A program made the position numbers and the translations under genes. Positions 676 through 16,153 of a stretch of DNA of 21,065 bases are shown piece by piece; position 1 is the first letter of the stretch, and every line of letters begins with the position of its first letter. The DNA comes from a virus. Its lineage: Duplodnaviria > Heunggongvirae > Uroviricota > Caudoviricetes. The stretch lies in IMG/VR virus record IMGVR_UViG_2718218228_000013, one strand, 5' to 3'. The notes beneath the pieces were generated by a model. That model worked only from the letters and a program-made list of their open reading frames with translations, did not search any database and was not told the DNA's origin.

Positions 676-1632
676 GTGACTAGTTATTCAAACTTTTCCA
701 ATCAAATAAAAGAAACCATCAATAATAAATTCGATCATGAAATTCATGATTGGGACATTATAAAAAACTCAATCACAACTTTAATAAATAAAAATATCCA
801 TGGTGCAGGTAGAAATATCGTTGATTTTATAGATTTAGGTAACTGGGATTTTATTTCAAACTTTTCCTTTGATGACTCTACAAGAAGACTTGAATTAGAG
901 TGGCACCCCAATGATAAATTCCATATATATATTGAGTCCGTTGTGTTTGTCGAGTTTAATGACACTATATATGCTTTCTTAAAGGGATACTATCACAATC
1001 AGTTATCTCTAAATAGAATATATAATACAAAATGCTCTTCATGTTCATTTGAAAACTCAGGTTCTTATATGGTAGACGTTTATAGAACGGTTAAAAGAGT
1101 AAATGAGACAATCCAGACCCCAAATATAAATTGCTATACTACATGTATTTTAACAAGGCCCGCAAATGGTCATGTTACATCTACAGGCTTCTCACGAAAC
1201 CTCATGGATGCGATAAATATTTCATTAGCAGAGCACAAAATAGCCTCTTTACATAATGAAGTCATGAGTATTGAGGAATATGATCGTGATTCTTTACAAG
1301 AGAAAGGAAATACTGCCAGGAGATATTTAGAATATATTCTCATGCTTGTTAATATTCGTATAATGCATTTAAACAACGTTCAATACCAAGAGCAAATGCT
1401 AGGTAGTTTAGTTTCTGTTATTGAGGCTCTGGACTATGAACCATTAATGAAAAATGATGTTGAAATTACAAAGGACATCCTTAATGCTTGCAGCCACCAC
1501 GGGGGGGTTAGAATTGAAAAGAAAGATGTAATTTTTTCTTTGGAAGTTATTGAAAACTTAATTAAAGCCATAAAGAAAACCGACATAAATAAATTACAAC
1601 TCGATGGGATGTTTAAATCAATTCAAAAATAA
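676..1632 (+). CDS. Hypothetical protein (318 aa), AT-rich cargo gene between left att repeat and primase
   Basis: Long ORF with GTG start; GAGG 7 nt upstream; much more AT-rich than the adjacent primase gene. No motif recognised. Confidence 0.6.
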   Translation: MTSYSNFSNQIKETINNKFDHEIHDWDIIKNSITTLINKNIHGAGRNIVDFIDLGNWDFISNFSFDDSTRRLELEWHPNDKFHIYIESVVFVEFNDTIYAFLKGYYHNQLSLNRIYNTKCSSCSFENSGSYMVDVYRTVKRVNETIQTPNINCYTTCILTRPANGHVTSTGFSRNLMDAINISLAEHKIASLHNEVMSIEEYDRDSLQEKGNTARRYLEYILMLVNIRIMHLNNVQYQEQMLGSLVSVIEALDYEPLMKNDVEITKDILNACSHHGGVRIEKKDVIFSLEVIENLIKAIKKTDINKLQLDGMFKSIQK

Positions 1633-1764: not shown

Positions 1765-4098
1765 TTATTTCGCTGCAAACTCATCGCATTTTGGCAACCA
1801 GTCAGCATTGCTTTCCTCTCTTAGGGCCAGATTAGTCTGCATTCCTTGATTGGTCCGTCGTTTCTCATACTGCAGCCCATATTCCTTGAGCATTAACGGT
1901 AGCCCCTTGCCAAACATGGTCAGACTGAGCGTATTTTTATAGCCGTTAGCCTCCATGTAGACCAGATAGGCATGGTAGAGGTAAGTTCGAGGCTGACGTG
2001 GAACAATATTAGCGTTCCCCATAAACATGCCCGTGGTGTCAGGTAGGACCTCAAGGTAGCCGCAAAAATCAAAAGCTGAATCAGCATCACGTTTGATGGT
2101 GAGCGCTTCATCGGAGTTCTGCTGTGACTGAAGCAATGTCCTGGCACTCATTGGGTCGCTGAAACGCTGCATAAGCTGGCGAACAATCACCGCTAGCTCA
2201 CTGGCAATTTTCTCTTTGAGCTGGGTATCGCGTTCCTCCGGGGCTATCTGGTCGGGGAAATGCAGGATCACCCTTCGGCGTGAAACTCCACCACTACGAT
2301 CAGTGAAGCGCATCGGATTATTGTTCACAGCCAGGATGACCGCCGGGATGTGGGTTGAATAGGCGTTCTGATATTTGGGATCAACGGATACCGCATCGCC
2401 GCCAGTGATGGCTTTTAGTCCGGCCCCGTCACCGCTCCACTTTTCCTGGTCGGGAAGTCGAATCAGTGAAAAACCTATTAACGCAGCTCGTTCTCTTGGC
2501 GACTCAAGCATTTCAATGGTTGCCGAGGTCGCGTTATCTTCACCCGCCAGCATGGTTGCTATTTCAGCAAGAATACTCTTTCCACTTCCGCCAGGGCCAG
2601 TGACCTCCAGAAACAGCTGCCAGTCATAACGGTTAGCCAGCACCATAAACAATGCAGCCAGAATAATGTCCCGTTTTTCAGGATTAAAACCTGCGGCACG
2701 ATCCAGCCAGCGCCAGAATGCCGGGGCATGGGTTTCCAGTGACTCACCGTCAACGGGCTGCGTGTAATCCACCTCGCACAGCGTACGTAACCAGTGCTTC
2801 TTATCGTGCGGGCTGAACAATCCTGTCCGGGTATCGAGCACACCGTTGCGAAATCCGATAAGTTGCCGCGCCGGATTCTGCTGTTGCGGAACGATCAGTT
2901 TGAGGGTTTCCACGAGAGACGCAATTTTCGCGGATGAAAAAGGTGCGTCGAGGCGCTGAAACAGCGCAGCGACATCACGGGCAAAATCGGCGTAATAGAT
3001 AACTTTCCAGGCCCCCGCCTCATAGCGTGAAAGGAGCTGCCCGTTCGGGTCTACTGCCAGTGAATTTTTATAGTGATCCACTACCCTCTGCGCTTTTTCG
3101 CTGACGCTCAGCGCGGTAAATTCAGCTTCGCTCATTGTGTCGAAGGGGCTGGCAACAGCTGGTTTTATTACTTCATGAATTGCATGCCGGGTGGCTTCTT
3201 CGCCGTTTTGCGTGAATGCATCGTTCCAGTCACCAAACACAGGCGGGAGCGCCATTGTGCAATTGCAGGCCCCGGTAACAGCTGCGCCCCTTGTTTGCCC
3301 CGCACCGTTGAGATCGCGGTCAGCAGCAATAATTATCTGGTGCGTTGGGTACTCACTGCAGGCAATGCTCGCCAGGGAAAGGAAATTGACGGACGAAAAG
3401 GCCACCATGACAGCATCGCCAGTCAGATAGTTGATAGTAAGTGCGGTGGCATATCCTTCCGCTATCCAGAGCCGTTTGGCTGCTTTGGCAGTACCTTCAA
3501 CCAGGTAAAAGGCATTCTTAACCTGACCGCCTTTAAGGAAGCATTTGCCCCCATTAGCGTTGATTAACTGCAGATTTACCAGCTCTCCATCTGCATACAA
3601 TGGAACGACAAGATCTCCCGCGCGAAATGCCACACCACCGACTTTATGCATAGCGGTTAATTCCCGGCAAGGCAGTGCAGGAAACCCTTTACTCGTCAGA
3701 TAGGCATTGCCAGTGGTCTGGCGGGACTTATCAAACAAACGGGCAGCCAGCACTGCTGCAGCTTTTCTCCCGTCCTCTTTTTCAGGAGAACCAGATTCAA
3801 GCATTCCCTGAGATACTGGCAGCAGGTTTCCGATAATGCCGTTTATTCTGTCTGCCGCTTCACTAATGCCTACATCCAGTACTTTACTTACAAGCGCCAG
3901 GCCATCACCTGCCCCGCACTGGTTACAGAACCACGTTCCCCGCCCTTCCTGGTCATCAAATCGAAAGCGGTCTTTCCCGGCACAGACCGGGCAGGGCTGG
4001 TGCCGATTTTTCAGTACATTTACGCCCAGCGCAGGTAAAATTCTTGACCAGTGACCCCGAGCTGCTTTCTCAGCCTGGCTAACTTTCATTCCTGACAT
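1765..4098 (-). CDS. P4 alpha-type DNA primase-helicase (777 aa)
   Basis: ORF 1765..4155; start placed at the internal ATG (4098) preceded by AAGGAGGG. N-terminal Cys-rich zinc-binding primase region (CPVCAGKDRFRFDD...WFCNQCG); Walker A-like GPGGSGKS. Length equals P4 alpha (777 aa). Confidence 0.92.
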   Translation of the reverse strand: MSGMKVSQAEKAARGHWSRILPALGVNVLKNRHQPCPVCAGKDRFRFDDQEGRGTWFCNQCGAGDGLALVSKVLDVGISEAADRINGIIGNLLPVSQGMLESGSPEKEDGRKAAAVLAARLFDKSRQTTGNAYLTSKGFPALPCRELTAMHKVGGVAFRAGDLVVPLYADGELVNLQLINANGGKCFLKGGQVKNAFYLVEGTAKAAKRLWIAEGYATALTINYLTGDAVMVAFSSVNFLSLASIACSEYPTHQIIIAADRDLNGAGQTRGAAVTGACNCTMALPPVFGDWNDAFTQNGEEATRHAIHEVIKPAVASPFDTMSEAEFTALSVSEKAQRVVDHYKNSLAVDPNGQLLSRYEAGAWKVIYYADFARDVAALFQRLDAPFSSAKIASLVETLKLIVPQQQNPARQLIGFRNGVLDTRTGLFSPHDKKHWLRTLCEVDYTQPVDGESLETHAPAFWRWLDRAAGFNPEKRDIILAALFMVLANRYDWQLFLEVTGPGGSGKSILAEIATMLAGEDNATSATIEMLESPRERAALIGFSLIRLPDQEKWSGDGAGLKAITGGDAVSVDPKYQNAYSTHIPAVILAVNNNPMRFTDRSGGVSRRRVILHFPDQIAPEERDTQLKEKIASELAVIVRQLMQRFSDPMSARTLLQSQQNSDEALTIKRDADSAFDFCGYLEVLPDTTGMFMGNANIVPRQPRTYLYHAYLVYMEANGYKNTLSLTMFGKGLPLMLKEYGLQYEKRRTNQGMQTNLALREESNADWLPKCDEFAAK

Positions 4099-4111
4099 TG
4101 TGCGGCCCTCC

Positions 4112-4435
4112 TTAGTGCAGCGCTGGTTTGTTGAGGTGACGGGAACAAAGTTCATCCATGACCGTCATTCCGAGCAGTGAGAGAACCGGACAGGCTTTAA
4201 GCGGCCCCGACTCCATCAGATCCGAAAGCAACGCGCAGGCAATTTCCAGCCCTCTTTGCTGCCCATGCTGGCGCAGATAGAACCCTTCCAGCTCGCGGGC
4301 TATGGCATCTTCAAGTTCAGCGAGCGTCAGGCCGGAATAACGTTCCTGATGATTGCTTAGAGCCAGCCAGGCACAGGCAACGGCACGGCGATACAGAGCG
4401 GCACGAAGTGCCAGAAGAGATTCACAGCATATCAT
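4112..4435 (-). CDS. Hypothetical protein (107 aa) upstream of primase
   Basis: ORF whose start overlaps the upstream gene stop (TGATG-type) and ends 13 nt before the primase start. No motif recognised. Confidence 0.5.
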
Positions 4436-6400: not shown

Positions 6401-7153
6401 ATGACAATCCCAGAACAGAACAATAACCCGATCGTTGAAATTTCTATCCCTGTTTCGACGCAACAGGCGCTTGAGAAAGTGAATGCCACCAAATCTGCAT
6501 GGCTTGAAGCACGTCGTCAGCAAAAAGCGGCAGCGGATAATATTGCGACAATCCGCCAGCGCCGCGCTGAAATGGAAGCCACGACGAACGCCCTGAATGA
6601 GGAGTGGCGCACGCTATTTCGTGAAAGTCAGGGCGTAGTCTCAAAGGAAATGAAAAAACTGCGCACGGAAATTGCGCTGGGACGAGAAACGCTTGAGGAT
6701 TTTGATGAGCTGCTGGCGGCTCAGGAAAGCGAAAATGCACTTTTGCCGCAGGAGGCTGCGGAATTAGCCGGAAAGTATATCCACGCGCACGACACCCTTG
6801 TGGGTATTCGCGCAAAACAAATCTGGGAAGATTTTATGCAGTCGCATGGAAAAGCACTAATCCAGACACTAAGCCTGCTCAAATCAACAATGGGCAGGGA
6901 AGCCAGCGCAGTTGTCGGTGTGGTGCATTCAGTTAATGACCCGGACACACTGCTGAAAGATTTTATTCATAAACATATCACCAGACCGGCTCTGACTAAC
7001 GATGCGATGCCCGAACAGGACCCCGTGTTTAAACTGGCGGGAGTTGCCCCGGATTATGCGGCCCGTCTGGATTTCAGTAATAAACTCTCTCCAGCAGCTA
7101 TGCATAAAATGAAGGTTCGTCAGGAACGTGCTGAGAAGGAGAAAGCAGTATGA
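6401..7153 (+). CDS. sid: Sid-like capsid size determination (external scaffold) protein
   Basis: 250 aa (P4 Sid 244 aa); first gene of the late operon; internal similarity to the downstream Psu-like protein; stop overlaps the next start. Confidence 0.6.
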   Translation: MTIPEQNNNPIVEISIPVSTQQALEKVNATKSAWLEARRQQKAAADNIATIRQRRAEMEATTNALNEEWRTLFRESQGVVSKEMKKLRTEIALGRETLEDFDELLAAQESENALLPQEAAELAGKYIHAHDTLVGIRAKQIWEDFMQSHGKALIQTLSLLKSTMGREASAVVGVVHSVNDPDTLLKDFIHKHITRPALTNDAMPEQDPVFKLAGVAPDYAARLDFSNKLSPAAMHKMKVRQERAEKEKAV

Positions 7154-7701
7154 TGGCCCGAGTCACTCCAGACCAAGCGCTTATCAGTTTTAGAAATGCC
7201 CGTATTCTGTGGGCTGGACATAGTGAGAGCCGAAAAGCCGTTGAACAACAGATAGAATCACTCCTCACTGCCATGGAAAAACCAGCAGATTATGCTCGAC
7301 AGCTCGAATTACAGCGGGAACATCTGGATGTGCTGAAATGGCAAATTAACTGTGCTGCGCGCGAATGCATTTACTCGCAGCATCAACTGATGGAGGCCTG
7401 CACAGAAGACGCTCTCAGCAATTTTATGCAGGCGAATGGAGCAGCCCTGACATCTGCACTGGCTCCGTTCCTGAAGGGGCGCGGAGGGGTTGACGTTGCG
7501 TCCCGTATATTACGCAATGCTCTGGTTCGCCAGCTGGCAATAACACCGCCTGAAATTGCCGGGGATTATCGTATGATTCTGGATGAATCCGGTGTGATGC
7601 CTGACCCCATGATGGTTCGTGATTGCCAGAGCTCTTACACCCCTGCACAACAACTGCGCTTTCAGCAACGTCTGGATTACATTAACGGCATGCAGGAGTA
7701 A
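7150..7701 (+). CDS. psu: Psu-like polarity suppression / capsid decoration protein
   Basis: 183 aa; LKWQINCAARECIYS, FMQANGAALTSALAP and YTPAQQLRF resemble P4 Psu as I recall it. Confidence 0.7.
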   Translation: MMARVTPDQALISFRNARILWAGHSESRKAVEQQIESLLTAMEKPADYARQLELQREHLDVLKWQINCAARECIYSQHQLMEACTEDALSNFMQANGAALTSALAPFLKGRGGVDVASRILRNALVRQLAITPPEIAGDYRMILDESGVMPDPMMVRDCQSSYTPAQQLRFQQRLDYINGMQE

Positions 7702-7706
7702 TATTA

Positions 7707-7979
7707 ATGGCACTTAAATGTCCCGAATGCGGTACGACGGCACACGCCAGAACCTCCGCCTATGAAGCACCATCGGTTAAACGCTCATGGTATCAGTGCC
7801 AGAATCTTGAATGTTCCTACACATTTACCGCACTGGAAAGTGTGGATACGATAATCATGAAGCCCCGGCGCAATGAACAGGAATCAGAGAAAGCACAAAT
7901 GCCGGAAAAACAACAGCAAACTCTCAATCGCTATGGCTCCGCGTCAAAGCTGTCAAGCCGTCAGCAAATTCCTGTCTGA
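7707..7979 (+). CDS. Ogr/Delta-family zinc-finger late transcriptional activator
   Basis: CPECGTTAHARTS...YQCQNLECSYTF, the classic Ogr/Delta Cys4 motif; 90 aa. Confidence 0.9.
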   Translation: MALKCPECGTTAHARTSAYEAPSVKRSWYQCQNLECSYTFTALESVDTIIMKPRRNEQESEKAQMPEKQQQTLNRYGSASKLSSRQQIPV

Positions 7980-8027: not shown

Positions 8028-8332
8028 CGCCTTTTCCCTGGCTGGCCTGAGAGCGCATGAGTGCATGTCTATAGCGCATGAAAACGCATGATTCTCATGC
8101 ACCATTTTTGACGCGAAAGCCCTTGTGTGGTGGCTTCTGAGACGATTTGCGGAATGCATGAAAACCAGTCTGTTAAGCGAAGCGAGCAGGCGTGGGGGGC
8201 TGCGCGCGCTAAGGGGTTAGATTATAAAATATCAAACGCCGGTGAGATCCATTATTGTGGAACCACCCGAAGGAAGTGTAGAGGCGAAAGTACCCAAAAT
8301 AATTTTGCAAATTATTTAGAAATGAACTGAGC

Positions 8333-8358
8333 GCTCGAAACGAAATATAATTTCGAGC
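8333..8358 (-). terminator. Hairpin downstream of the minus-strand hotspot cassette (candidate terminator)
   Basis: GCTCGAAA-N10-TTTCGAGC inverted repeat about 30 nt after the stop of the last cassette gene; flanked by T-rich sequence. Confidence 0.4.
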
Positions 8359-8388
8359 ACCCCAATTAGCAGTTATATTTTTAATGTA

Positions 8389-8955
8389 TTAAACAGGATA
8401 AAAACCAGAGCTTCCATTCTTATTTAAGTTATGGATTTTATTTGCATCATTAATTTTTATTTGGAACGTCGGACCTTTATTCTCAAGAATTACAATCTGG
8501 AAATTATAGTCCCTTTTGATTAATGCGTGATAAAATGAATCACTGAGACTGACGCTATTAACATCCGATAGAGAACCCCCTCTATCTTTATCAAAGTGCG
8601 TCACTAATGGACTATCAAGCACAACAAATCCAATGAATGGATTCCCTTTTCTTGATAAAAATTCCGCAAAGCAAATGGTAAATATAGCATGCATTACTGC
8701 ACGGGTACCTTTACCAAACATTCCTCGGCGTTTCCCATTGATATTAAAGTCATATGTATCTTCGTCAAATCGCACTTTGTTATCTTTAGAATTTTCAAAA
8801 TTTATATCATTCAAAAAGTCTTGCATCGCTATTTCTATATCATACAAATCAGCTACTGTTAAGGAGTCAAAGTCCTCGGCGGAGTATTTAAGTTCGTCAA
8901 CATCATCTTCTTTATCTTGTAATGAAGATAGAATGCTATGTTTTGTGTGATCCAT
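8389..8955 (-). CDS. ABC/SMC-like ATPase C-terminal lobe (Walker B-like FVVLDSP), hotspot cassette gene 6
   Basis: 188-aa ORF; hydrophobic strand + D (PFIGFVVLDSP); ATG overlaps upstream stop as TAATG; could be a frameshifted continuation of the upstream ORFs. Confidence 0.55.
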   Translation of the reverse strand: MDHTKHSILSSLQDKEDDVDELKYSAEDFDSLTVADLYDIEIAMQDFLNDINFENSKDNKVRFDEDTYDFNINGKRRGMFGKGTRAVMHAIFTICFAEFLSRKGNPFIGFVVLDSPLVTHFDKDRGGSLSDVNSVSLSDSFYHALIKRDYNFQIVILENKGPTFQIKINDANKIHNLNKNGSSGFYPV

Positions 8956-9545
8956 TAAAAGATTGTCTTTATATTCATAAAGTGATTCAAGAGATGAATG
9001 TATTGTTTTATATTTTTATCTTCTAACGTCTTAAAATCACTTTTTTCTGATTGATAAATTTCATTAACATCATTTTTTCTTAACATAATTAATTCATGTT
9101 CGCGAACATTAGATCCGATTGATTCAATTAATCCTTTCAGCTGGCTTTTGATTTTCAATTTTTCTGCATTACACGACAAAAAACAATCATCATATGATAT
9201 TTCATTTTCTTTTTTTTGCGGTGTATTACAGAACTCACAATAAATATCTGCAAAATTATTTAAATAGAAATTCGCCTGTGATACAACATCTATTCTTTGT
9301 AGATCTATAAAGTATTGGTCTTTAAGAAGACTAAATCTTTCAATGAGTAATGATAAGTATTTTTCCCTGTCACTGATTGAATATAATTCATCACTTAACT
9401 CTTTTAATAATTGCTTCTTATCATCAAGTGCATCAACAATACCTTTCAATATATCTTTCGATGATTCAATATCTTGCTCTACTTTCTCAAGTTCTCTTGA
9501 AACAATGACTTGATCATATTCAGGATAAATTAATTGCGCTTTCAA
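8955..9545 (-). CDS. Coiled-coil segment with central CxxC (CEFC), hotspot cassette gene 5
   Basis: 196-aa K/E/L-rich heptad-like sequence; same frame as the upstream Walker A ORF, separated only by one TAA (9576-9578). Confidence 0.5.
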   Translation of the reverse strand: MKAQLIYPEYDQVIVSRELEKVEQDIESSKDILKGIVDALDDKKQLLKELSDELYSISDREKYLSLLIERFSLLKDQYFIDLQRIDVVSQANFYLNNFADIYCEFCNTPQKKENEISYDDCFLSCNAEKLKIKSQLKGLIESIGSNVREHELIMLRKNDVNEIYQSEKSDFKTLEDKNIKQYIHLLNHFMNIKTIF

Positions 9546-9575
9546 TTCCTCATAAATATTTGCAATTTGATTTTT

Positions 9576-10226
9576 TTAAAAATATCTTGCTTTTTTATTT
9601 GGTTTTTCTGCTAAGGAGTTAGTATCATCTCTCTGAGTTAAAAGGAATTTAAATTCAGACTTTCTTTTTGTCTCCTCGCTAGGAATATCAGAAAGAATTA
9701 ACGACTTCTCAGTTAACACTCTTAATTCATCAATACAAAAAAATTCAAAAACATTATTAAGATTAAATTTATGAAGAGTATTACTTAAGTTTGTTCTTAC
9801 TTTAGCCTCTTTGAAATTCAACCTACCATAAAAGTATGATGAAAAACTCTTTTTAGACGAAGCACTTTTGGAAAAAACCATCAACAGATTAGCTTCACTA
9901 ACATTTTCAATGCTCGAATCATATAATCTGTAATGGGCGCTATCCTGAAGAGACCTCTCAATTGTCATTACCCTACCTTGAAAATTAAATTCCAGATAGG
10001 CTAAATCATAACCTTGAGCATGATCGATATCTTTATTTTTTAGTTTTTCACTCCCTAATAAATATCGAATCAAATAATATATGTATGTTTTTCCAGAGTC
10101 AGAACCACCATATAAAATAGTCAATTTAGAACCAAATTCAATTATAGCATCTAATTTATTGAATCCGGTTACCTTTATTTTTCTGAACGTAAAAAAATTG
10201 TCATTCATAATTAAATTCCATATCAT
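9576..10226 (-). CDS. ABC/SMC-like ATPase N-terminal lobe (Walker A GGSDSGKT), hotspot cassette gene 4
   Basis: LTILYGGSDSGKTYI P-loop in a RecF/SMC-like N-terminal context; ORF opens at TTG 10235, ATG starts at 10226 or 10208; ends at in-frame TAA. Confidence 0.6.
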   Translation of the reverse strand: MIWNLIMNDNFFTFRKIKVTGFNKLDAIIEFGSKLTILYGGSDSGKTYIYYLIRYLLGSEKLKNKDIDHAQGYDLAYLEFNFQGRVMTIERSLQDSAHYRLYDSSIENVSEANLLMVFSKSASSKKSFSSYFYGRLNFKEAKVRTNLSNTLHKFNLNNVFEFFCIDELRVLTEKSLILSDIPSEETKRKSEFKFLLTQRDDTNSLAEKPNKKARYF

Positions 10227-10659
10227 ATTTGCCAATTTTATTTTTTATAATTGATTGCAACTGCTCATCAGGAATATCACTATATAACTTAACCACCAAA
10301 TTTATATTATGCTCCATCTGCGCAACATATTCATTATGTAGAGAATTTGTAAATGCATATGTTTTTTCAGAAGCTTTATATACAAAACCACGATGTGTAT
10401 AAATTTTTGAGGCTAGTTCATAGCCTTGCAACAAAGCCAATGATTCTAAAACAATCTCTCGTTTTAGGGCTAACTGAGCATCTCTACGGGGTATTGGAGG
10501 ATGAAGACTAATCTCTTCAGGTAAAAAATCCTTAAGATTTACTAAAATAAAATCAAAACAAATAAGCCGTTCAAGGCTTAATGAAGAAGGATAAATAGCG
10601 ACGAGCACTTTCGCCATTCGACATGCCACTTCTAAACTTGAATTATAAATTCTAACCAT
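10201..10659 (-). CDS. Hypothetical small protein (about 152 aa), hotspot cassette gene 3
   Basis: ATG at 10659 overlaps upstream stop as TAATG; GGTGA 4 nt upstream; stop overlaps start region of gene 4. No motif recognised. Confidence 0.5.
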   Translation of the reverse strand: MVRIYNSSLEVACRMAKVLVAIYPSSLSLERLICFDFILVNLKDFLPEEISLHPPIPRRDAQLALKREIVLESLALLQGYELASKIYTHRGFVYKASEKTYAFTNSLHNEYVAQMEHNINLVVKLYSDIPDEQLQSIIKNKIGKYDMEFNYE

Positions 10660-11276
10660 TATCTCACCGTCCAAATTACTTCACCATCATTAACCAAATG
10701 ATGGCATATTCCTTTTTTATCATTTGCTTCACATATTTTTGATAGTACTGAATGTGCAATTGGTGTCAGAACAGCCTGCTTCAAGACTGCATTACACCTA
10801 ATAAATGCATAATTATGGTCTTCATAAAAGACGGGTTCAATTGAAGATGAAATGTAACATTTCAATGCTTTGAATACATCATCTTTAAATACTTCGCGGA
10901 CAAAAACCTCAAGCGAAGATGCAAAATAAAAATCATTTCTACTATTATTAAAGTGTCGTCTGTATGGATCATCAAGCTCTAAGAAAGAACTATAAGTTTT
11001 ATTTCCATGCTCTGAATAGGCTTGAAGCAGTGCATTAACATATACAGACTCTTTTTTTGAATTGTATGTTGGAATTTCATTTGGAGGGATTCTCACGACA
11101 TACAGCTCGTTAAAGTACTTAAAATAAAGGTGTGTATTTGCAATATCATTTAAAATCAATGATAAGGGTAGAGAGTAAAAAATACTAAAATCAAAATCCT
11201 CAATATATTTTTTTATTTCATCATCTAATGGAATATCAATCTTTTTAGTTATTTTTTTGAAATTGCTGAATCCCAT
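10659..11276 (-). CDS. Hypothetical protein (205 aa), hotspot cassette gene 2; possibly C-terminal part of a frameshifted gene 1-2 fusion
   Basis: AT-rich ORF with one candidate start; overlaps gene 1 by 28 nt across an A7 tract where a 1-nt indel would fuse the frames. Confidence 0.5.
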   Translation of the reverse strand: MGFSNFKKITKKIDIPLDDEIKKYIEDFDFSIFYSLPLSLILNDIANTHLYFKYFNELYVVRIPPNEIPTYNSKKESVYVNALLQAYSEHGNKTYSSFLELDDPYRRHFNNSRNDFYFASSLEVFVREVFKDDVFKALKCYISSSIEPVFYEDHNYAFIRCNAVLKQAVLTPIAHSVLSKICEANDKKGICHHLVNDGEVIWTVR

Positions 11277-11665
11277 GAATCAAGGACTGCTTTTTTAAGC
11301 TCGTTTTTATTTTTCAATAAATTAGAAAATGTAGTAGATAAATCATAGGGTGCCACAAAAAAGTACTTCTGAGGGATGGGATAATCACCATTCAGAGTAA
11401 AATAGATAAGTTTTCCAAACTCAACTACAACATCAGAGAACCCTAAACTTTTTTTGTACAGTTTGCATTGATAATTATCCCAAGAATAACCTTCTACGTT
11501 AGGATCCGATTTATATCCAACAACGTCTCTACCTTTATCTCCAGCTCCTCCCAAACGTTCGCTCCACGGGTAATCATCTGATTTACAGACAATAAGCCAA
11601 TCATGGACAAATACCCCCCATTGTTCATCATCCCATGTCAATATTTCCGAAAGTGGTTGAGACAC
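11249..11665 (-). CDS. Mrr-type PD-(D/E)xK restriction-endonuclease-like domain protein (138 aa), hotspot cassette gene 1
   Basis: GGAGDKGRDVVGY ... YQCKLYKK matches the Mrr catalytic pattern; GTG start with AAGGAG 7 nt upstream, 3 nt after the int stop. Confidence 0.55.
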   Translation of the reverse strand: MSQPLSEILTWDDEQWGVFVHDWLIVCKSDDYPWSERLGGAGDKGRDVVGYKSDPNVEGYSWDNYQCKLYKKSLGFSDVVVEFGKLIYFTLNGDYPIPQKYFFVAPYDLSTTFSNLLKNKNELKKAVLDSWDSAISKK

Positions 11666-11668
11666 AAA

Positions 11669-12850
11669 TTAACTCCTTTTTAGTCTTTCAAATATCAAAT
11701 TACTGTACCAGTCCATCATAGACTTCCTTCCACTAAAATATTGAGCATGGTTATAAGTCCCCCTAATAGAATTTTTATCTACATGAGCCAACTGGATTTC
11801 AATCCAAGCACTCTCAAAACCTTGCTCATGCAGGATTGTAGAAAGGGTATGACGAAAACCATGTCCAGTGACTTTTCCTCCATACCCAATACGCTTAATG
11901 GCTTGATTTATACTCGCTTCGCTCATTGGCCTATTCGGATCGTTCCGCCCTGGAAAAACATAACGATAGTTCCCTGTCATGATCTTGAGTTCATTGAGTA
12001 AATCTACCGCTTGAGATGATAAGGGCACAAGATGTGGCCTACGCATTTTCATCCTTTCAGCAGGAATTTCCCAAATAGCGTTATCCAGATCAAATTCTTG
12101 CCATAATGCCGCGCGTAATTCGATGGTTCTCACACCCGTAATCATCAGTAATTTCGTGGCTATCTGGACAAGCTTACTCCCGGAGTAACCCTCTAAGGCA
12201 CGTAGAAAATCAGGTATCTCATCAGCTTTTAGGAATGGGAAATGATTGGATTGGTGTACTTCGAGAGCGCTGGAGAGATCAGCCGCAGGATTGTACTCCG
12301 CCCTACCCGTTGCAATTGCGTAGCGAAACACTTCGGAGCAACGCTGCCGCACTTTGCGCATTTTCTCCAACGCACCACGTTTCTCAATTTTACGCAGAAC
12401 GTTCAGCAGCTCTAGCGGTTTAATCTCTCCCACAGGCCTTGTTCCGACATAAGGAAAAATGTCGTTCTTAAACGCTTCCATGATGTCTGATGCATATCCC
12501 GCCGACCATTTAGCAGATTTAAGTTGATGCCACTCTCTGGCTATCTTTTCGAAGGCGTTCTCTGACTCTGTTTGCATAGCTAGCTTTTGCTCTTTTCGAA
12601 CCTCACTAGGGTTCTTTCCTTCTGCCACAAGTTTTCGAGCTTCATCACGACGGGAACGAGCATCGGCAAGGGTGATCGTTGGGTAAACACCAAGCGAGAT
12701 CATTTTGGGTTTGCCGGCATAGCGATAGCGGAACCGCCAACTCTTGCTTCCATTAGGTTCTATAAGTAATGACAACCCTAGCCCATCTCCAAATGTATAG
12801 GCTTTAGCTTCAGGCTTAGCGCGGCGAATCTGCATATCGTTTAAAGGCAT
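11669..12850 (-). CDS. int: P4-type tyrosine integrase
   Basis: MPLNDMQIRRAKPEAKAYTFGDGLGL N-terminus and C-terminal HGFRHT...Y catalytic region; start placed at ATG 12850 (ORF opens at 12901). Confidence 0.92.
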   Translation of the reverse strand: MPLNDMQIRRAKPEAKAYTFGDGLGLSLLIEPNGSKSWRFRYRYAGKPKMISLGVYPTITLADARSRRDEARKLVAEGKNPSEVRKEQKLAMQTESENAFEKIAREWHQLKSAKWSAGYASDIMEAFKNDIFPYVGTRPVGEIKPLELLNVLRKIEKRGALEKMRKVRQRCSEVFRYAIATGRAEYNPAADLSSALEVHQSNHFPFLKADEIPDFLRALEGYSGSKLVQIATKLLMITGVRTIELRAALWQEFDLDNAIWEIPAERMKMRRPHLVPLSSQAVDLLNELKIMTGNYRYVFPGRNDPNRPMSEASINQAIKRIGYGGKVTGHGFRHTLSTILHEQGFESAWIEIQLAHVDKNSIRGTYNHAQYFSGRKSMMDWYSNLIFERLKRS

Positions 12851-13012: not shown

Positions 13013-13058
13013 TGGTGCCGATAATAGGAGTCGAACCTACGACCTTCGCATTACGAAT
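13013..13058 (-). other. 46-nt 3' fragment of a tRNA-Thr(CGU) gene (anticodon loop to CCA), right att copy of the P4-like element
   Basis: Reverse complement ATTCGTAATGCGAAGGTCGTAGGTTCGACTCCTATTATCGGCACCA matches the 3' part of enterobacterial tRNA-Thr(CGU) as recalled; no complementary 5' acceptor strand, so not an intact tRNA. Confidence 0.75.
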
Positions 13059-13405
13059 TATAAGAATCCGCTTCTAATTCAAAGCATTACCCCATCAACA
13101 CTGCGCTCACACGTCCCACCACATCAAAACATGTAAAGCCTTGCAAGCCATTGCGAGGCCTTATGTGTCTCAGTTTTGTCCCACCTTGTATTACGACTTG
13201 CATAGCCAATGAAGATAAACGTGACGACAAACGGCGCAGCAGTCTTCTTTTCTTTCACGACTTCTCCAGCATGCATACCTTTCTGCCATGACTGAAGTGA
13301 ATGCCTGTTATGAGCAAGGATTGGCCCAGATGAATCGCCCTGGACTGTTGCGATCGTGAAGCCATAGACTGGGCCGCAAGCACGGGAGGTTACGATAAAG
13401 CGACA

Positions 13406-13771
13406 GTGCAGGATGTCATGTTAGGAGCGATAGAAAAACGCTTTGGCGATAAAGTACCGGAACAGTCCATCCAGTGGCTGACAGATAACGGTTCAGCGTA
13501 TAGAGCGCATGAAACACGGCAGTTCGCCAGAGAGTTGAATCTGGAGCCCTGCACAACGGCAATCAGCAGTCCTCAGAGTAATGGAATTGCAGAAAGGTTC
13601 GTGAAAACGATGAAGGAAGACTACATCGCGTTCATGCCGAAACCGAATGTAAGAACGGCATTGCATAATCTTGCAGTGGCGATCGAACATTACAATGAAA
13701 ACCATCCGCACAGTGCGTTGGGTTATCGCTCTCCGCGAGAATATCGACGTCAGCGGGTAACGTTAACTTAA
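13406..13771 (+). pseudogene. IS2-like (IS3 family) transposase OrfB C-terminal fragment; IS remnant about 13130-13810
   Basis: [11 protein letters not shown]...[16 protein letters not shown]...[14 protein letters not shown] is the DDE-core C-terminus typical of IS2 OrfB; no upstream OrfA or N-terminal OrfB in frame. Confidence 0.7.
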
Positions 13772-13812
13772 GATACCCCCCCTGTCTGGAAATAAGGGGG
13801 CAAGAACAATGA

Positions 13813-14556
13813 TCAGATTCCCTGGTGAGTAAGAATTTTACTTTCTGAACTCCTCTGAGAGTATTGACTTGGAGAAACACCAAAATAACGTCTAAATACA
13901 TAAGTAAAGTATGAGACACTGGCATAACCACAGACCTTAGCTACTTTACTAATAGGATAACAACGAGTGCTGAGTAAATATTCAGCCATTTGCATCCTCT
14001 CATCAAGTATGATCTTACTGAATGATACCCCCTCTTCTTTCAATTTCCTCTTTAGTAAACTTTCGCTGAGATATAATCTTGATGATATATCCTTAAGACG
14101 CCATGGTGCAGATAAATCCGTATGAATAATCGTTTTAACTTTAGCCCCTGTGCTTTTCAAACATCCAAACAGAAATACTCCAAATTGTTTTTCAGAAGAA
14201 AATGCAGAGAGACATGTAAAAGCAATAGACTCATCAAAAATTTCTATGTATTCAGCACAGTGATTAGCCCAACTAATTAATCCTTTAATTAAACTGAAGT
14301 CAGCAAAGTTTATTTTTAAATAAGATGGATATTCCCTACAATCAGAAATATCCCTTAAGTTATTAGCTTTCAAATAGCGACTAATAAACTCAGCGCCAAA
14401 ATCCGCCACTATCACTCTTTCAGGATATGTCAGGAAAAAATCTCTAGAGCTAGAGTCGACAAGTACAGATGAACCTCTCTCCAGAAACACACTCTCTTTT
14501 CCGAAATAAACATCAAAGGACTCCAAAATCAATATAACTGAACATGTAGTTGCCAT
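13813..14556 (-). CDS. AraC-family transcriptional regulator (AppY/EnvY-like)
   Basis: C-terminal AraC-type HTH (LKDISSRLYLSESLLKRKL...YFTYVFRRYFGVSPSQY); AT-rich. Confidence 0.8.
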   Translation of the reverse strand: MATTCSVILILESFDVYFGKESVFLERGSSVLVDSSSRDFFLTYPERVIVADFGAEFISRYLKANNLRDISDCREYPSYLKINFADFSLIKGLISWANHCAEYIEIFDESIAFTCLSAFSSEKQFGVFLFGCLKSTGAKVKTIIHTDLSAPWRLKDISSRLYLSESLLKRKLKEEGVSFSKIILDERMQMAEYLLSTRCYPISKVAKVCGYASVSYFTYVFRRYFGVSPSQYSQRSSESKILTHQGI

Positions 14557-15138
14557 ATCATCCCCCCAATTTAACTGAAACCAGGATGAAGTATATGTAT
14601 ATAAAGTTCACTTTGCCAAACTTCAGTATAAAAAACCACTAAAAATAGGGTGTGATAAAAAATACCGTAACAATAAAGCAAAGGATTATAAATTCCGTTA
14701 CAGTTACAAATGATACTCAAGAAACAATTCCTTAGGAAAAACTTATTTACAGCCAATAAGTAAGACACTTATATGATATCAAGTTTTCATAAAACATAAC
14801 TAGGCTAAATAGCTGCGCCTAATACCGCTACACTTTTGCCAGCCCATGTTTGCCTCCGGGTATTGACCCCTTCTCTACGCAACTTCAGTTCCCACCACCA
14901 ACTTTGCGGCAGCTTTGTAGGATCAATGTCTAAAAGAATAATGGTGACCGATAAGAAAACGACTGAATAACTGCAGATTTTCGCTCAAAACCTTCCTGTC
15001 AGATCCATAGCGAATCAAGTGCTGAATGTCACAGTATCGAACAGAAAACAGTGACGATCTAACCCTTCAAGAATATTCTACGATTGTTCTGTTTAGGAAA
15101 AGCAAGACGGGAAGTCGGGAGATAAGTCATTGATAAAG

Positions 15139-15283: not shown

Positions 15284-16153
<870 letters not shown>

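What the first reader, a model, noticed from the sequence alone, without database searches (positions are those of the whole stretch)
11249..11276. A7 tract at the gene 1 / gene 2 boundary: a 1-nt length change would fuse them
Gene 1 ends ...TCA AAA AAA TAA while gene 2 reads the same A-run in another frame. One extra A (A8) makes gene 1 read directly into gene 2, giving a roughly 335-aa Mrr-domain protein. So the cassette is either frameshift-inactivated, phase-variable through slipped-strand mispairing, or affected by a homopolymer sequencing error. The gene 5 / gene 6 boundary (8953-8957, TAATG) also involves a frame change.
Basis: seen in the sequence. Interest (0 to 1): 0.6.

Follow-up and report, generated by a model that had tools for sequence, protein, structure and literature searches.

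The report
Frameshifted, decayed Lamassu defence gene
The A7 run is where a single anti-phage nuclease gene (lmuA of a Lamassu system carried by a P4-like satellite prophage of E. coli O157:H7) lost one A and broke into two ORFs; the break is fixed in every strain examined and the partner gene is broken as well, so this is an ordinary dead gene, not a switch.

Summary
On the minus strand, gene 1 (11249-11665) ends TCA AAA AAA TAA, gene 2 (10659-11276) reads the same A7 run (11252-11258) in the -1 frame, and one extra A gives a 335-aa protein.

That protein is LmuA, the Mrr-type nuclease effector (Mrr domain plus CTD6) of a three-gene Lamassu / ABC-3C defence system, lmuA-lmuC-lmuB. The system sits in the int-psu hotspot of P4-like prophage Sp2 of E. 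coli O157:H7.

- All divergent homologues found are single 324-381-aa genes.
- Aeromonas has TCA AAA AAA ATT (A8) at the same codons.
- The exact fused protein, differing only by G17E, exists on 434 public contigs. A 99%-identical intact LmuB exists in Salmonella.

- Sequencing error is excluded: about 300 independent complete genomes have A7.
- Phase variation is not supported: 0 of 309 E. coli records have A8, including O55:H7.
- Restoring the frame would not restore function. lmuB carries a nonsense codon (9576-9578) and an A6-to-A5 frameshift (9013-9017).

This is a decaying pseudogene cluster, of low novelty.

The parts
11252..11258 (-). A7 homopolymer, the site of a 1-nt deletion from an ancestral A8 (TCA AAA AAA ATA = S-K-K-I) inside lmuA. 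In the gene-1 frame it also forms the slippery heptamer A_AAA_AAA, followed directly by TAA.
   Evidence: Searches give the sequence. Aeromonas has TCA AAA AAA ATT at the aligned codons. P. mirabilis and Pantoea are in frame with interrupted tracts; the exact A8-type protein exists on 434 contigs.
11249..11665 (-). lmuA 5' fragment ('gene 1', ECs_0290, 138 aa). It holds the complete Mrr-like restriction-endonuclease domain with its catalytic residues (D43, D47, Q66-C67-K68, E82, K85). GTG start with an AAGGAG Shine-Dalgarno.
   Evidence: PADLOC LmuA PDLC03852 positions 10-140, E=3.6e-39. Invariant columns in the 40-sequence alignment. 8 of 40 family members hit Pfam Mrr_cat. SD sequence.
10659..11276 (-). 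lmuA 3' fragment ('gene 2', ECs_0291, 205 aa as an ORF): conserved linker plus CTD6, the C-terminal domain of ABC-3C/Lamassu effectors. The first 8 codons (MGFSNFKK) are out-of-frame overlap with gene 1. There is no Shine-Dalgarno before the ATG.
   Evidence: Pfam CTD6, E=7.7e-30. PADLOC LmuA positions 141-333. No SD.
10201..10659 (-). lmuC (ABC-3C middle component 2, ECs_0292, 152 aa). It is the only intact gene of the cassette.
   Evidence: Pfam MC2, E=6e-30. PADLOC LmuC, E=2.5e-36. A 151-154-aa MC2 gene sits between lmuA and lmuB in the homologous cassettes.
8389..10208 (-). lmuB pseudogene (SMC-like/ABC ATPase, ECs_0293), split into three ORFs: 9576-10235, 8955-9545 and 8389-8955.
   Evidence: PADLOC LmuB PDLC03863 positions 3-199, 231-412 and 428-608 of 610. 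tblastn with intact 604-609-aa homologues spans all three ORFs. Sakai annotates it as a pseudogene.
9576..9578 (-). Nonsense codon TAA in lmuB, from ancestral TTA (Leu). It is a T-to-A change at 9577 that turns T6A6 into T5A7.
   Evidence: Near-identical loci L015, L025 and L034 still carry TTA. P. mirabilis has TTA.
9013..9017 (-). A5 run, the site of a 1-nt deletion from A6 (GAT AAA AAA TAT AAA) that frameshifts lmuB.
   Evidence: this is the only gap column against the intact P. mirabilis and Pantoea lmuB. L035 has A6; the protein rebuilt with A6 exists exactly in Salmonella.
8953..8957 (-). TAATG stop/start overlap. It is a by-product of the lmuB frameshift, not a coupling signal between real genes.
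   Evidence: Homology in the downstream frame starts at about 9009, some 50 nt upstream of this ATG. No SD.
11669..12850 (-). P4-type tyrosine integrase (intS, ECs_0289), one border of the satellite's defence hotspot.
   Evidence: Pfam Arm-DNA-bind_3, Phage_int_M and Phage_integrase. Annotation.
6401..7979 (+). P4 sid-like, psu and delta genes, the other border of the hotspot.
   Evidence: Pfam Psu and Ogr_Delta. Sakai annotation of prophage Sp2 as a P4-like phage.

Best explanation
The A7 tract marks a fixed 1-nt deletion (A8 to A7) inside a single ancestral gene, lmuA. That gene encodes the Mrr-nuclease effector of a type II Lamassu (ABC-3C) anti-phage system, lmuA-lmuC-lmuB. The system is cargo in the integrase-psu hotspot of P4-like satellite prophage Sp2 of E. 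coli O157:H7.

The deletion cuts LmuA after residue 138. This separates the nuclease domain (gene 1) from the conserved linker and CTD6 domain (gene 2). In characterised Lamassu systems, the CTD docks the effector on LmuB/LmuC and mediates its activating oligomerisation.

Two further lesions break lmuB: TTA to TAA at 9576-9578, and A6 to A5 at 9013-9017. The cassette is therefore a decaying pseudogene cluster.

Shown here: the lesions, their ancestral states, their fixation across the lineage, and the existence of intact near-identical alleles elsewhere.

Inferred: loss of defence function (from the published requirement for all three components), and replication slippage as the origin of the two homopolymer deletions.
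For: (1) One protein, two ORFs. PADLOC LmuA profile PDLC03852 is covered 10-140 by gene 1 and 141-333 by gene 2. Pfam CTD6 lies in gene 2.

(2) Of 156 significant homologues, the 120 listed are single 324-381-aa proteins covering 88-100% of the fused query, apart from two fragments. The homologous cassettes inspected are three genes, 334-337 / 151-154 / 604-609 aa.

(3) Codon alignment:
- window: TCA AAA AAA [A]TA ACT
- Aeromonas: TCA AAA AAA ATT ACA, i.e. A8 and the same SISKKIT peptide
- a metagenomic relative: AGT AAA AAA ATA
- Pantoea: TCA AAG AAA ATA
- P. mirabilis: TCC AAT AAA ATA

(4) The fused protein with one substitution (G17E, the state in nearly all other copies) is in the 15-billion-protein collection on 434 contigs. 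Partial Salmonella proteins read straight through ...SAISKKITKKIDI....

(5) lmuB rebuilt with TTA and A6, plus 5 substitutions seen in L035, exists exactly as a 606-aa Salmonella protein on 292 contigs.

(6) Fixation. 309 E. coli records match; none is identical to an A8 query (best 99.2%, which is one gap). The 33 near-identical loci fetched (32 independent copies plus the Sakai source locus) have A7 together with the A5 lesion, including copies integrated next to proBA and in O55:H7.

(7) Stepwise decay.
- L015, L025 and L034 have A7 and A5 but still TTA.
- Some O157 strains have further breaks: ORF5 split into 129+67 aa, an IS in lmuB, and an IS3-family element inserted at 11289/11290 in lmuA (it accounts for the truncated match in NCCP 13918, and 8 records show a similarly short match).

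(8) Millman et al. 2022 (10.1101/2022.05.11.491447) showed that Lamassu-family systems, including a Lamassu-Mrr, lose defence on mutation of the effector, mutation of the LmuB ATPase, or deletion of lmuC.
Against: No expression or phenotype data were available.

I could not fetch the DNA of the intact Salmonella-type allele. Its A8 is inferred from the protein sequence and from one error-prone IMG/VR contig (L035).

Gene 1 keeps a good SD, an intact nuclease domain and all catalytic residues. A truncated protein is therefore probably still made, and its activity is unknown.

The heptamer A_AAA_AAA followed by a stop codon could allow a trace of -1 frameshifting to full-length LmuA.
Confidence: 0.9

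Rival explanations
1. Phase variation. The A tract is a contingency locus that switches lmuA ON (A8) and OFF (A7) by slipped-strand mispairing, so the population can toggle a costly abortive-infection nuclease.
For: The lesion lies in a homopolymer, and both A7 and A8 states exist in nature among 99%-identical alleles. Intact relatives keep A7 or A8 runs in frame at the same codons, so the site is intrinsically slippage-prone.
Against: 0 of 309 E. coli records carry A8, and none of the 33 near-identical loci fetched does either. The exact fused protein with the window's own G17 is absent from 15 billion proteins.

The allele states are lineage-linked: A7 is always found with the lmuB A5 lesion, and the only A8 DNA seen (L035) has A6. 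That is the signature of single old events, not frequent switching.

A7 is shared by O55:H7 and O157:H7. An ON switch would be useless because lmuB is broken twice.

From general knowledge: 7-8-nt A runs in mismatch-repair-proficient E. coli are shorter than the tracts of classical contingency loci.
Confidence: 0.04
2. Recoding. Full-length LmuA is made from the A7 allele by -1 ribosomal frameshifting on A_AAA_AAA (the adjacent TAA stop possibly helping), or by transcriptional slippage. On this view the split is a programmed expression device.
For: In the gene-1 frame the tract is a perfect X_XXY_YYZ heptamer followed immediately by a stop codon. A -1 shift yields exactly the conserved ...SKKITKK... 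product. A-rich heptamers are frameshift-prone in E. coli, and A7 runs can cause transcriptional slippage (PMC4066793).
Against: The 92 nt downstream fold worse than shuffled controls (z = +1.65; 195 of 200 shuffles fold at least as well). No SD-like element is visible upstream.

Without stimulators, heptamers gave at most about 10 times a 0.055% background in reporter assays (PMC4066793), so sub-percent yields are expected.

The two-frame arrangement is not conserved. All 40 aligned family members and the divergent loci examined are in one frame. lmuB is non-functional in any case.
Confidence: 0.03
3. Homopolymer sequencing or assembly error. The real genome has A8 and an intact gene.
For: Homopolymer miscalls are common. 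One IMG/VR contig (L035) and one long-read assembly (ATCC 43888) of this same region do carry such errors at other runs.
Against: A7 is reproduced in about 300 independently sequenced complete genomes made on many platforms, including the Sanger-era Sakai and EDL933 genomes. The 138-aa and 205-aa products are on 287 and at least 1000 contigs. The two lmuB lesions are reproduced in the same way.
Confidence: 0.01
4. A genuinely split, still-functional effector. The nuclease domain and the CTD6 domain work as two polypeptides that assemble non-covalently.
For: The break falls between the nuclease domain and the C-terminal half. Both ORFs are otherwise free of stops. RefSeq annotates them as two ordinary CDSs.
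Against: Gene 2's ATG has no Shine-Dalgarno, and its first 8 codons are out-of-frame overlap.

The break is not in a variable linker. It lies inside a conserved motif, WDxxIxxKIT, with W131 invariant and I139 at least 90% conserved.

No split homologue exists outside this clone. The required partner LmuB is destroyed.
Confidence: 0.02

Closest known systems
Lamassu-Mrr, a type II Lamassu (LmuA-LmuC-LmuB) equivalent to the ABC-three-component (ABC-3C) systems with an REase effector, CTD6 and MC2 (Millman et al. 2022, 10.1101/2022.05.11.491447; PMC12663957)
   Same: The three components and their order match: an LmuA with an N-terminal Mrr-like nuclease plus a C-terminal Lamassu/ABC-3C domain (Pfam CTD6), a small middle component (Pfam MC2 = LmuC), and a ~606-aa SMC-like ABC ATPase (LmuB). 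The location in a prophage/satellite defence hotspot also fits.
   Different: Here lmuA is frameshifted and lmuB carries a nonsense codon and a frameshift, so this copy is a relic. It is only distantly related in sequence to the tested E. coli SE15 system: no other E. coli complete genome matches this lmuA, even with sensitive blastn.
The intact sister allele in Salmonella enterica and other Enterobacteriaceae (P0165 LmuA 335 aa, P0181 LmuC, P0166 LmuB 606 aa), and the intact cassettes in Proteus mirabilis (L022) and in a Logan assembly (L024) that encodes the same LmuB as Pantoea alhagi
   Same: The Salmonella-type allele is about 99% identical in protein: 1 difference in LmuA, 1 in LmuC and 5 in LmuB. 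The L024 copy sits in the same P4-like satellite context, int-lmuACB-delta-psu next to proBA.
   Different: These copies have uninterrupted reading frames. Their tract is A8 or is interrupted: TCA AAG AAA ATA, or TCC AAT AAA ATA.
Contingency (phase-variable) loci with homopolymeric tracts, such as phase-variable restriction-modification and surface genes of Haemophilus, Neisseria and Campylobacter (general knowledge)
   Same: A coding-region homopolymer whose length decides whether a defence-type gene is in frame.
   Different: There is no length polymorphism among hundreds of close relatives, the tract is short (7 nt), and the remainder of the operon is independently inactivated.
Programmed -1 frameshift sites of the IS3/IS911 and dnaX type (A_AAA_AAG or A_AAA_AAA plus stimulators; PMC4066793, PMC5009743)
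   Same: A slippery A_AAA_AAA heptamer in the upstream frame, with the downstream ORF in the -1 frame.
   Different: There is no stimulatory downstream structure and no upstream SD-like element. The arrangement is not conserved, and the ancestral state is a plain single ORF.

Membership tests
Lamassu type II / ABC-3C system | LmuB: an SMC-like ABC ATPase of about 600 aa (N-terminal Walker A head, coiled coil, C-terminal head) | tested here: met
   PADLOC LmuB PDLC03863 is matched at positions 3-199, 231-412 and 428-608 of 610 by the three ORF fragments. Pfam AAA_23 hits the first fragment. The region is 42-57% identical over the full length to intact 604-609-aa homologues. Homology is met; the reading frame is not intact.
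Lamassu type II / ABC-3C system | LmuC / middle component encoded between effector and ATPase | tested here: met
   Pfam MC2 E=6e-30; PADLOC LmuC PDLC03871 E=2.5e-36. The position is the same in the homologous cassettes.
Lamassu type II / ABC-3C system | LmuA: an N-terminal effector domain fused to a Lamassu-specific C-terminal domain in one polypeptide | tested here: not met
   Both halves are present: PADLOC LmuA 10-140 and 141-333, and Pfam CTD6. They are in different frames because of the A8-to-A7 deletion. The feature is met only after adding one A in silico.
Lamassu type II / ABC-3C system | Effector of the Mrr/REase type with catalytic D...(Q/E)xK residues | tested here: met
   Invariant D43, D47, Q66-C67-K68, E82 and K85 in 40 relatives are all present in gene 1. 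8 of 40 relatives hit Pfam Mrr_cat, best E=1.6e-6. The window protein itself has no direct Pfam Mrr hit.
Lamassu type II / ABC-3C system | All components intact and conferring anti-phage or anti-plasmid defence | tested here: not met
   There are three inactivating lesions. The defence phenotype itself cannot be tested with these tools. The published requirement for all three components (10.1101/2022.05.11.491447) predicts loss of function.
Phase-variable contingency locus | Tract-length polymorphism among closely related isolates or within clones | tested here: not met
   0 of 309 E. coli records have A8. The 33 near-identical loci fetched all have A7. Within-culture heterogeneity cannot be tested with these tools.
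Phase-variable contingency locus | The ON state yields a functional product or system | tested here: not met
   lmuB carries an independent nonsense codon and a frameshift in the same genomes.
Programmed -1 ribosomal frameshift site | Slippery heptamer X_XXY_YYZ in the 0 frame | tested here: met
   TC A_AAA_AAA TAA in the gene-1 frame.
Programmed -1 ribosomal frameshift site | Stimulatory element (downstream stem-loop or pseudoknot, or upstream SD-like sequence) | tested here: not met
   The downstream 92 nt have an MFE of -5.9 kcal/mol, against -10.1 +/- 2.6 for shuffles (z = +1.65). No SD-like sequence is seen upstream.
Programmed -1 ribosomal frameshift site | Two-frame organisation conserved among homologues | tested here: not met
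   All divergent homologues are single ORFs.
P4-like satellite defence hotspot (Rousset et al. 2022, PMC9122126) | Variable cargo between psu/delta and the P4 integrase in an element with sid, psu, delta, alpA and an alpha primase | tested here: met
   int 11669-12850; cassette 8389-11665; delta 7707-7979; psu 7150-7701; sid-like 6401-7153; primase 1765-4155. The Sakai record calls it 'prophage Sp2, P4-like phage'.

The most novel reading that the evidence does not exclude
The relic may not be inert. Gene 1 still has a strong SD and a complete Mrr nuclease domain, and lmuC is intact.

One possibility is that sub-percent -1 slippage at A_AAA_AAA-TAA, or rare A7-to-A8 reversion, supplies traces of full-length LmuA. 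Another is that the free nuclease, the CTD6 fragment or LmuC have been retained for a new role, for example as decoys that interfere with an incoming Lamassu-bearing satellite.

The cassette would also be a rare, datable example of the 'inactivate then replace' route of defence turnover in P4 hotspots. A 2026 survey found that route to be uncommon (PMC13586616).
Probability: 0.04. Interest if true: 0.5.

Novelty: already known. Interest (0 to 1): 0.15.

Why it matters
The main value is annotation hygiene. In RefSeq, ECs_0290 and ECs_0291 (and their equivalents in hundreds of O157:H7 genomes) are listed as two ordinary CDSs ('hypothetical protein' and 'ABC-three component system protein'). They are the two halves of one frameshifted lmuA. 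Together with the lmuB pseudogene, this means O157:H7 should not be scored as carrying a working Lamassu system.

The locus also gives a small, clean example of stepwise decay of a defence system inside a P4-satellite hotspot:
- the ancestral state of every lesion is recoverable;
- an intact 99%-identical allele survives in Salmonella;
- two of the three lesions are 1-nt contractions of poly-A runs in a 31% G+C gene.

A recent large survey reports that recognisable defence pseudogenes in P4 hotspots are rare, so the locus could serve as a worked case. It makes no open question newly testable.

Tried and rejected
- **Recurrent lmuA breakage.** P. mirabilis L021 and Pantoea L023 showed lmuA gene calls of only 145 and 201 aa. 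The DNA alignment shows both are intact 1008-nt ORFs with a GTG start that the gene callers missed. Rejected.
- **L035 as proof of an A8 allele.** This is the only fetched DNA with A8, but the contig has about 26 indels, most of them in homopolymer runs, across the int-lmuB region (int plus cassette). I use it only as weak support. The A8 and A6 states rest instead on the exact protein look-ups.
- **Fetching contigs of the intact allele.** When one was accepted, it found nothing in JGI metagenomes. Look-ups by the window's own LmuC and integrase returned only split copies.
- **Other collections.** Megablast of the cassette found nothing in the phage collection and one E. coli record in the plasmid collection.
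- **The O157:H7 FRIK944 P4 system in Rousset et al. 2022.** That paper reports it as inactive, but the supplement shows it is a different two-gene 'cytidine deaminase' cargo. Not used as evidence.
- **Solved structures.** Sequence searches with the protein and with a 40-sequence profile gave nothing significant. I judged structure prediction unnecessary and did not run it.

Full report
**Where the window comes from.** The region 8300-11700 is 100% identical to E. coli strain 350 and one base different from O157:H7 Sakai, EDL933 and about 300 other complete genomes. In the Sakai record it lies in 'prophage Sp2, P4-like phage', next to lambda-like Sp1. The element has the P4 layout:
- primase, 1765-4155
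- sid-like, psu and delta, 6401-7979
- a 31% G+C cargo block, 8389-11665
- the integrase, 11669-12850

The psu-int interval is the known variable defence hotspot of P4-like satellites (PMC9122126).

**The observation.** All cassette genes are on the minus strand.
- Gene 1 (11665..11249, GTG start, 138 aa, ECs_0290) ends TCA AAA AAA TAA.
- Gene 2 (11276..10659, 205 aa, ECs_0291) begins ATG GGA TTC AGC AAT TTC AAA AAA ATA.
- The A7 run is 11252-11258.
- Adding one A gives a 335-aa ORF reading ...WDSAISKKITKKIDIPL....

A7 runs are not rare in this block, which has eight A/T runs of 7 or more, so the tract alone means little. The homology evidence gives it meaning.

**What the genes are.**
- PADLOC's LmuA profile PDLC03852 (336 positions) matches gene 1 at positions 10-140 (E=3.6e-39) and gene 2 at 141-333 (E=3.9e-44). 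That is one protein cut in two.
- Pfam places CTD6, 'C-terminal domain 6 of ABC-three component systems', in gene 2.
- The next gene (10201-10659) is MC2/LmuC.
- The three following ORFs match the LmuB profile PDLC03863 at 3-199, 231-412 and 428-608 of 610.

The six ORFs are therefore three genes, lmuA-lmuC-lmuB, a type II Lamassu / ABC-3C system.

The N-terminal domain is Mrr-like. In a 40-sequence alignment, D43, D47, Q66-C67-K68, E82 and K85 are invariant and all lie in gene 1. Eight of the 40 members hit Pfam Mrr_cat. NCBI names the fragments 'restriction endonuclease'. The window protein itself gives no direct Pfam Mrr hit.

**Homologues are single genes.** The fused protein finds 156 relatives. 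The 120 listed are 324-381 aa and cover 88-100% of the query, apart from two fragments. The cassettes inspected in Xenorhabdus, Aeromonas, metagenomes, Proteus mirabilis and a Pantoea-type assembly have three genes of 334-337, 151-154 and 604-609 aa.

Codon alignment at the junction:

| Source | Codons |
|---|---|
| window | TCA AAA AAA -TA ACT |
| Aeromonas | TCA AAA AAA ATT ACA (A8, same peptide SISKKIT) |
| metagenomic relative | AGT AAA AAA ATA |
| Pantoea-type | TCA AAG AAA ATA |
| P. mirabilis | TCC AAT AAA ATA |

The junction lies in a conserved motif, with W131 invariant and I139 at least 90% conserved. It is not in a loose linker.

Two short gene calls, 145 aa in P. mirabilis L021 and 201 aa in Pantoea L023, looked like further breaks. 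They are caller artefacts, because the DNA is an intact 1008-nt ORF in both.

**An intact sister allele exists.**
- The exact fused sequence with the window's G17 is not in the 15-billion-protein collection.
- The same sequence with G17E is there, on 434 contigs, the longest 1.88 Mb. G17E is the state in nearly every other copy.
- Partial Salmonella enterica proteins read straight through the junction...SAISKKITKKIDIPLDDEIKKYIED.
- I rebuilt lmuB with both lesions reverted, plus five substitutions seen in the IMG/VR contig L035. That sequence exists exactly as a 606-aa 'MULTISPECIES [Salmonella]' protein on 292 contigs.
- An LmuC with one substitution is widespread in Salmonella and other Enterobacteriaceae.

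The O157:H7 cassette is thus a broken copy of a system that is intact, at about 99% identity, elsewhere.

**The other lesions.**
- *Nonsense codon.* tblastn with intact LmuB homologues runs through an in-frame stop: ARYF*KNQI, against F-L-K in the homologues. The codon is TAA at 9576-9578. Near-identical loci L015, L025 and L034, and P. mirabilis, have TTA.
- *Frameshift.* The single gap column against the intact lmuB genes is at GAT-AAAAATAT. The ancestral state is A6 (GAT AAA AAA TAT); the window has A5 at 9013-9017.
- *TAATG.* The overlap at 8953-8957 is a downstream consequence of that frameshift. Homology in the new frame begins about 50 nt before the ATG, and the ATG has no SD.

**Is the tract variable?** A 100-nt query around the tract matches 309 E. 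coli records. In a 40-row sample spread down the ranking, 38 rows were 100% identical. The two exceptions were:
- one assembly with deletions in other runs (ATCC 43888, a record with many 'frameshifted' calls);
- one record with an IS3-family insertion at 11289/11290. Eight records in all cover less than 80% of the query, and only this one was inspected.

A query carrying A8 finds no perfect match. The best is 99.2%, which equals one gap. Sensitive blastn finds no other lmuA of this type in E. coli complete genomes.

The near-identical loci fetched from NCBI and IMG/VR all have A7 together with the A5 lesion: 32 independent copies, plus the Sakai locus from which the window itself comes. They include copies integrated beside proBA rather than beside Sp1, and O55:H7 strains. 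The only A8 DNA is L035, which also has A6. That contig carries about 26 indels, most of them in homopolymer runs, so I do not rely on it.

The states are therefore lineage-linked and old, not flickering. The order suggested by the loci is: A7 and A5 first, then TAA, then strain-specific IS insertions and extra frameshifts.

**Recoding?** In the gene-1 frame the tract is a textbook heptamer, A_AAA_AAA, followed by TAA, and a -1 shift would give the ancestral protein. Three things argue against a programmed site:
- the downstream 92 nt fold worse than shuffled sequence (z = +1.65);
- there is no SD-like element upstream;
- no homologue conserves a two-frame layout.

Without stimulators, heptamers give at most about ten times a 0.055% background in E. 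coli reporters (PMC4066793). A trace of full-length LmuA is possible but not programmed, and it would lack a working LmuB.

**Mechanism and consequence.** In solved Lamassu complexes, the LmuA C-terminal domain holds the effector on LmuB/LmuC and, after release, mediates the tetramerisation that builds the active nuclease site (PMC12663957). Effector, ATPase and LmuC are each required for defence, including in a Lamassu-Mrr system (10.1101/2022.05.11.491447).

Cutting LmuA between its nuclease domain and its linker-plus-CTD6 half, and truncating LmuB at about residue 219, should abolish the system. This step is inferred and was not tested.

Both frameshifts are contractions of poly-A runs in an AT-rich gene. 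That is the expected signature of replication slippage, which is also an inference.

**Verdict.** The 'fusable' reading is correct and the fused form is ancestral. Frameshift inactivation is the explanation. Sequencing error is excluded, and phase variation and programmed recoding are not supported.

The locus is an ordinary, progressively decaying defence pseudogene cluster. It has two uses: as an annotation correction, and as a tidy example of a rarely seen state of a P4 hotspot (PMC13586616). Interest is low.

Noticed in passing
window 15329-16153 (+): A 274-aa GIY-YIG protein matches the PADLOC PD-T4-3 profile end to end (E=2.3e-140) and Pfam LEM-3_GIY-YIG. It appears to be an intact single-gene anti-phage defence gene in the Sp1 (lambda-like) prophage remnant next to the satellite.
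   Followed up: partly
window 676-1632 (+): A 318-aa ORF (ECs_0304) in a 29-35% G+C block at the far end of the P4-like element, beyond the primase. It has no Pfam or PADLOC match. It may be a second cargo or defence candidate of unknown function.
   Followed up: partly
window 11615-11617 (-), base 11616: The window has GGG (Gly17), which makes a G6 run. Every other fetched copy with this codon, including Sakai, has GAG (Glu17), and E17 is at least 90% conserved in the family. In the complete-genome search only strain 350 was identical to the window. This is a private substitution in an already dead gene.
   Followed up: partly
window 11289/11290 and lmuB (locus L017 5934-7147): Some O157:H7 genomes carry IS insertions in the relic. 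An IS3-family element interrupts gene 1 at 11289/11290 in strain NCCP 13918, and 8 complete-genome records in all have a similarly truncated match. Another IS sits inside lmuB in GCA_000155125.1. Other strains split ORF5 further, into 129 + 67 aa.
   Followed up: partly
loci L021 (5113-5550) and L023 (4945-5550): Public gene calls truncate the intact lmuA of Proteus mirabilis and Pantoea alhagi to 145 and 201 aa because the GTG start is missed. The DNA is a full 1008-nt ORF in both.
   Followed up: yes
locus L035 (IMGVR_UViG_2923272612_000005): This IMG/VR contig of the same element has about 26 indels, mostly 1-2-nt changes in homopolymer runs, across int and the cassette. It is an error-prone assembly, so its reading frames cannot be trusted.
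   Followed up: yes
protein P0161: A 344-aa gene call from a Logan assembly carries Pfam MC2 and is 95% identical to the first third of LmuB. It is apparently an lmuC-lmuB N-terminal fusion call, either a real indel or an assembly artefact.
   Followed up: no
window 13030-14560: The junction between the two prophages holds a partial IS3-family element (ISEc48 in the Sakai record) and an AraC-family regulator (13813-14556, minus strand). No tRNA gene is found anywhere in the window, although related copies of the satellite sit beside proBA.
   Followed up: partly
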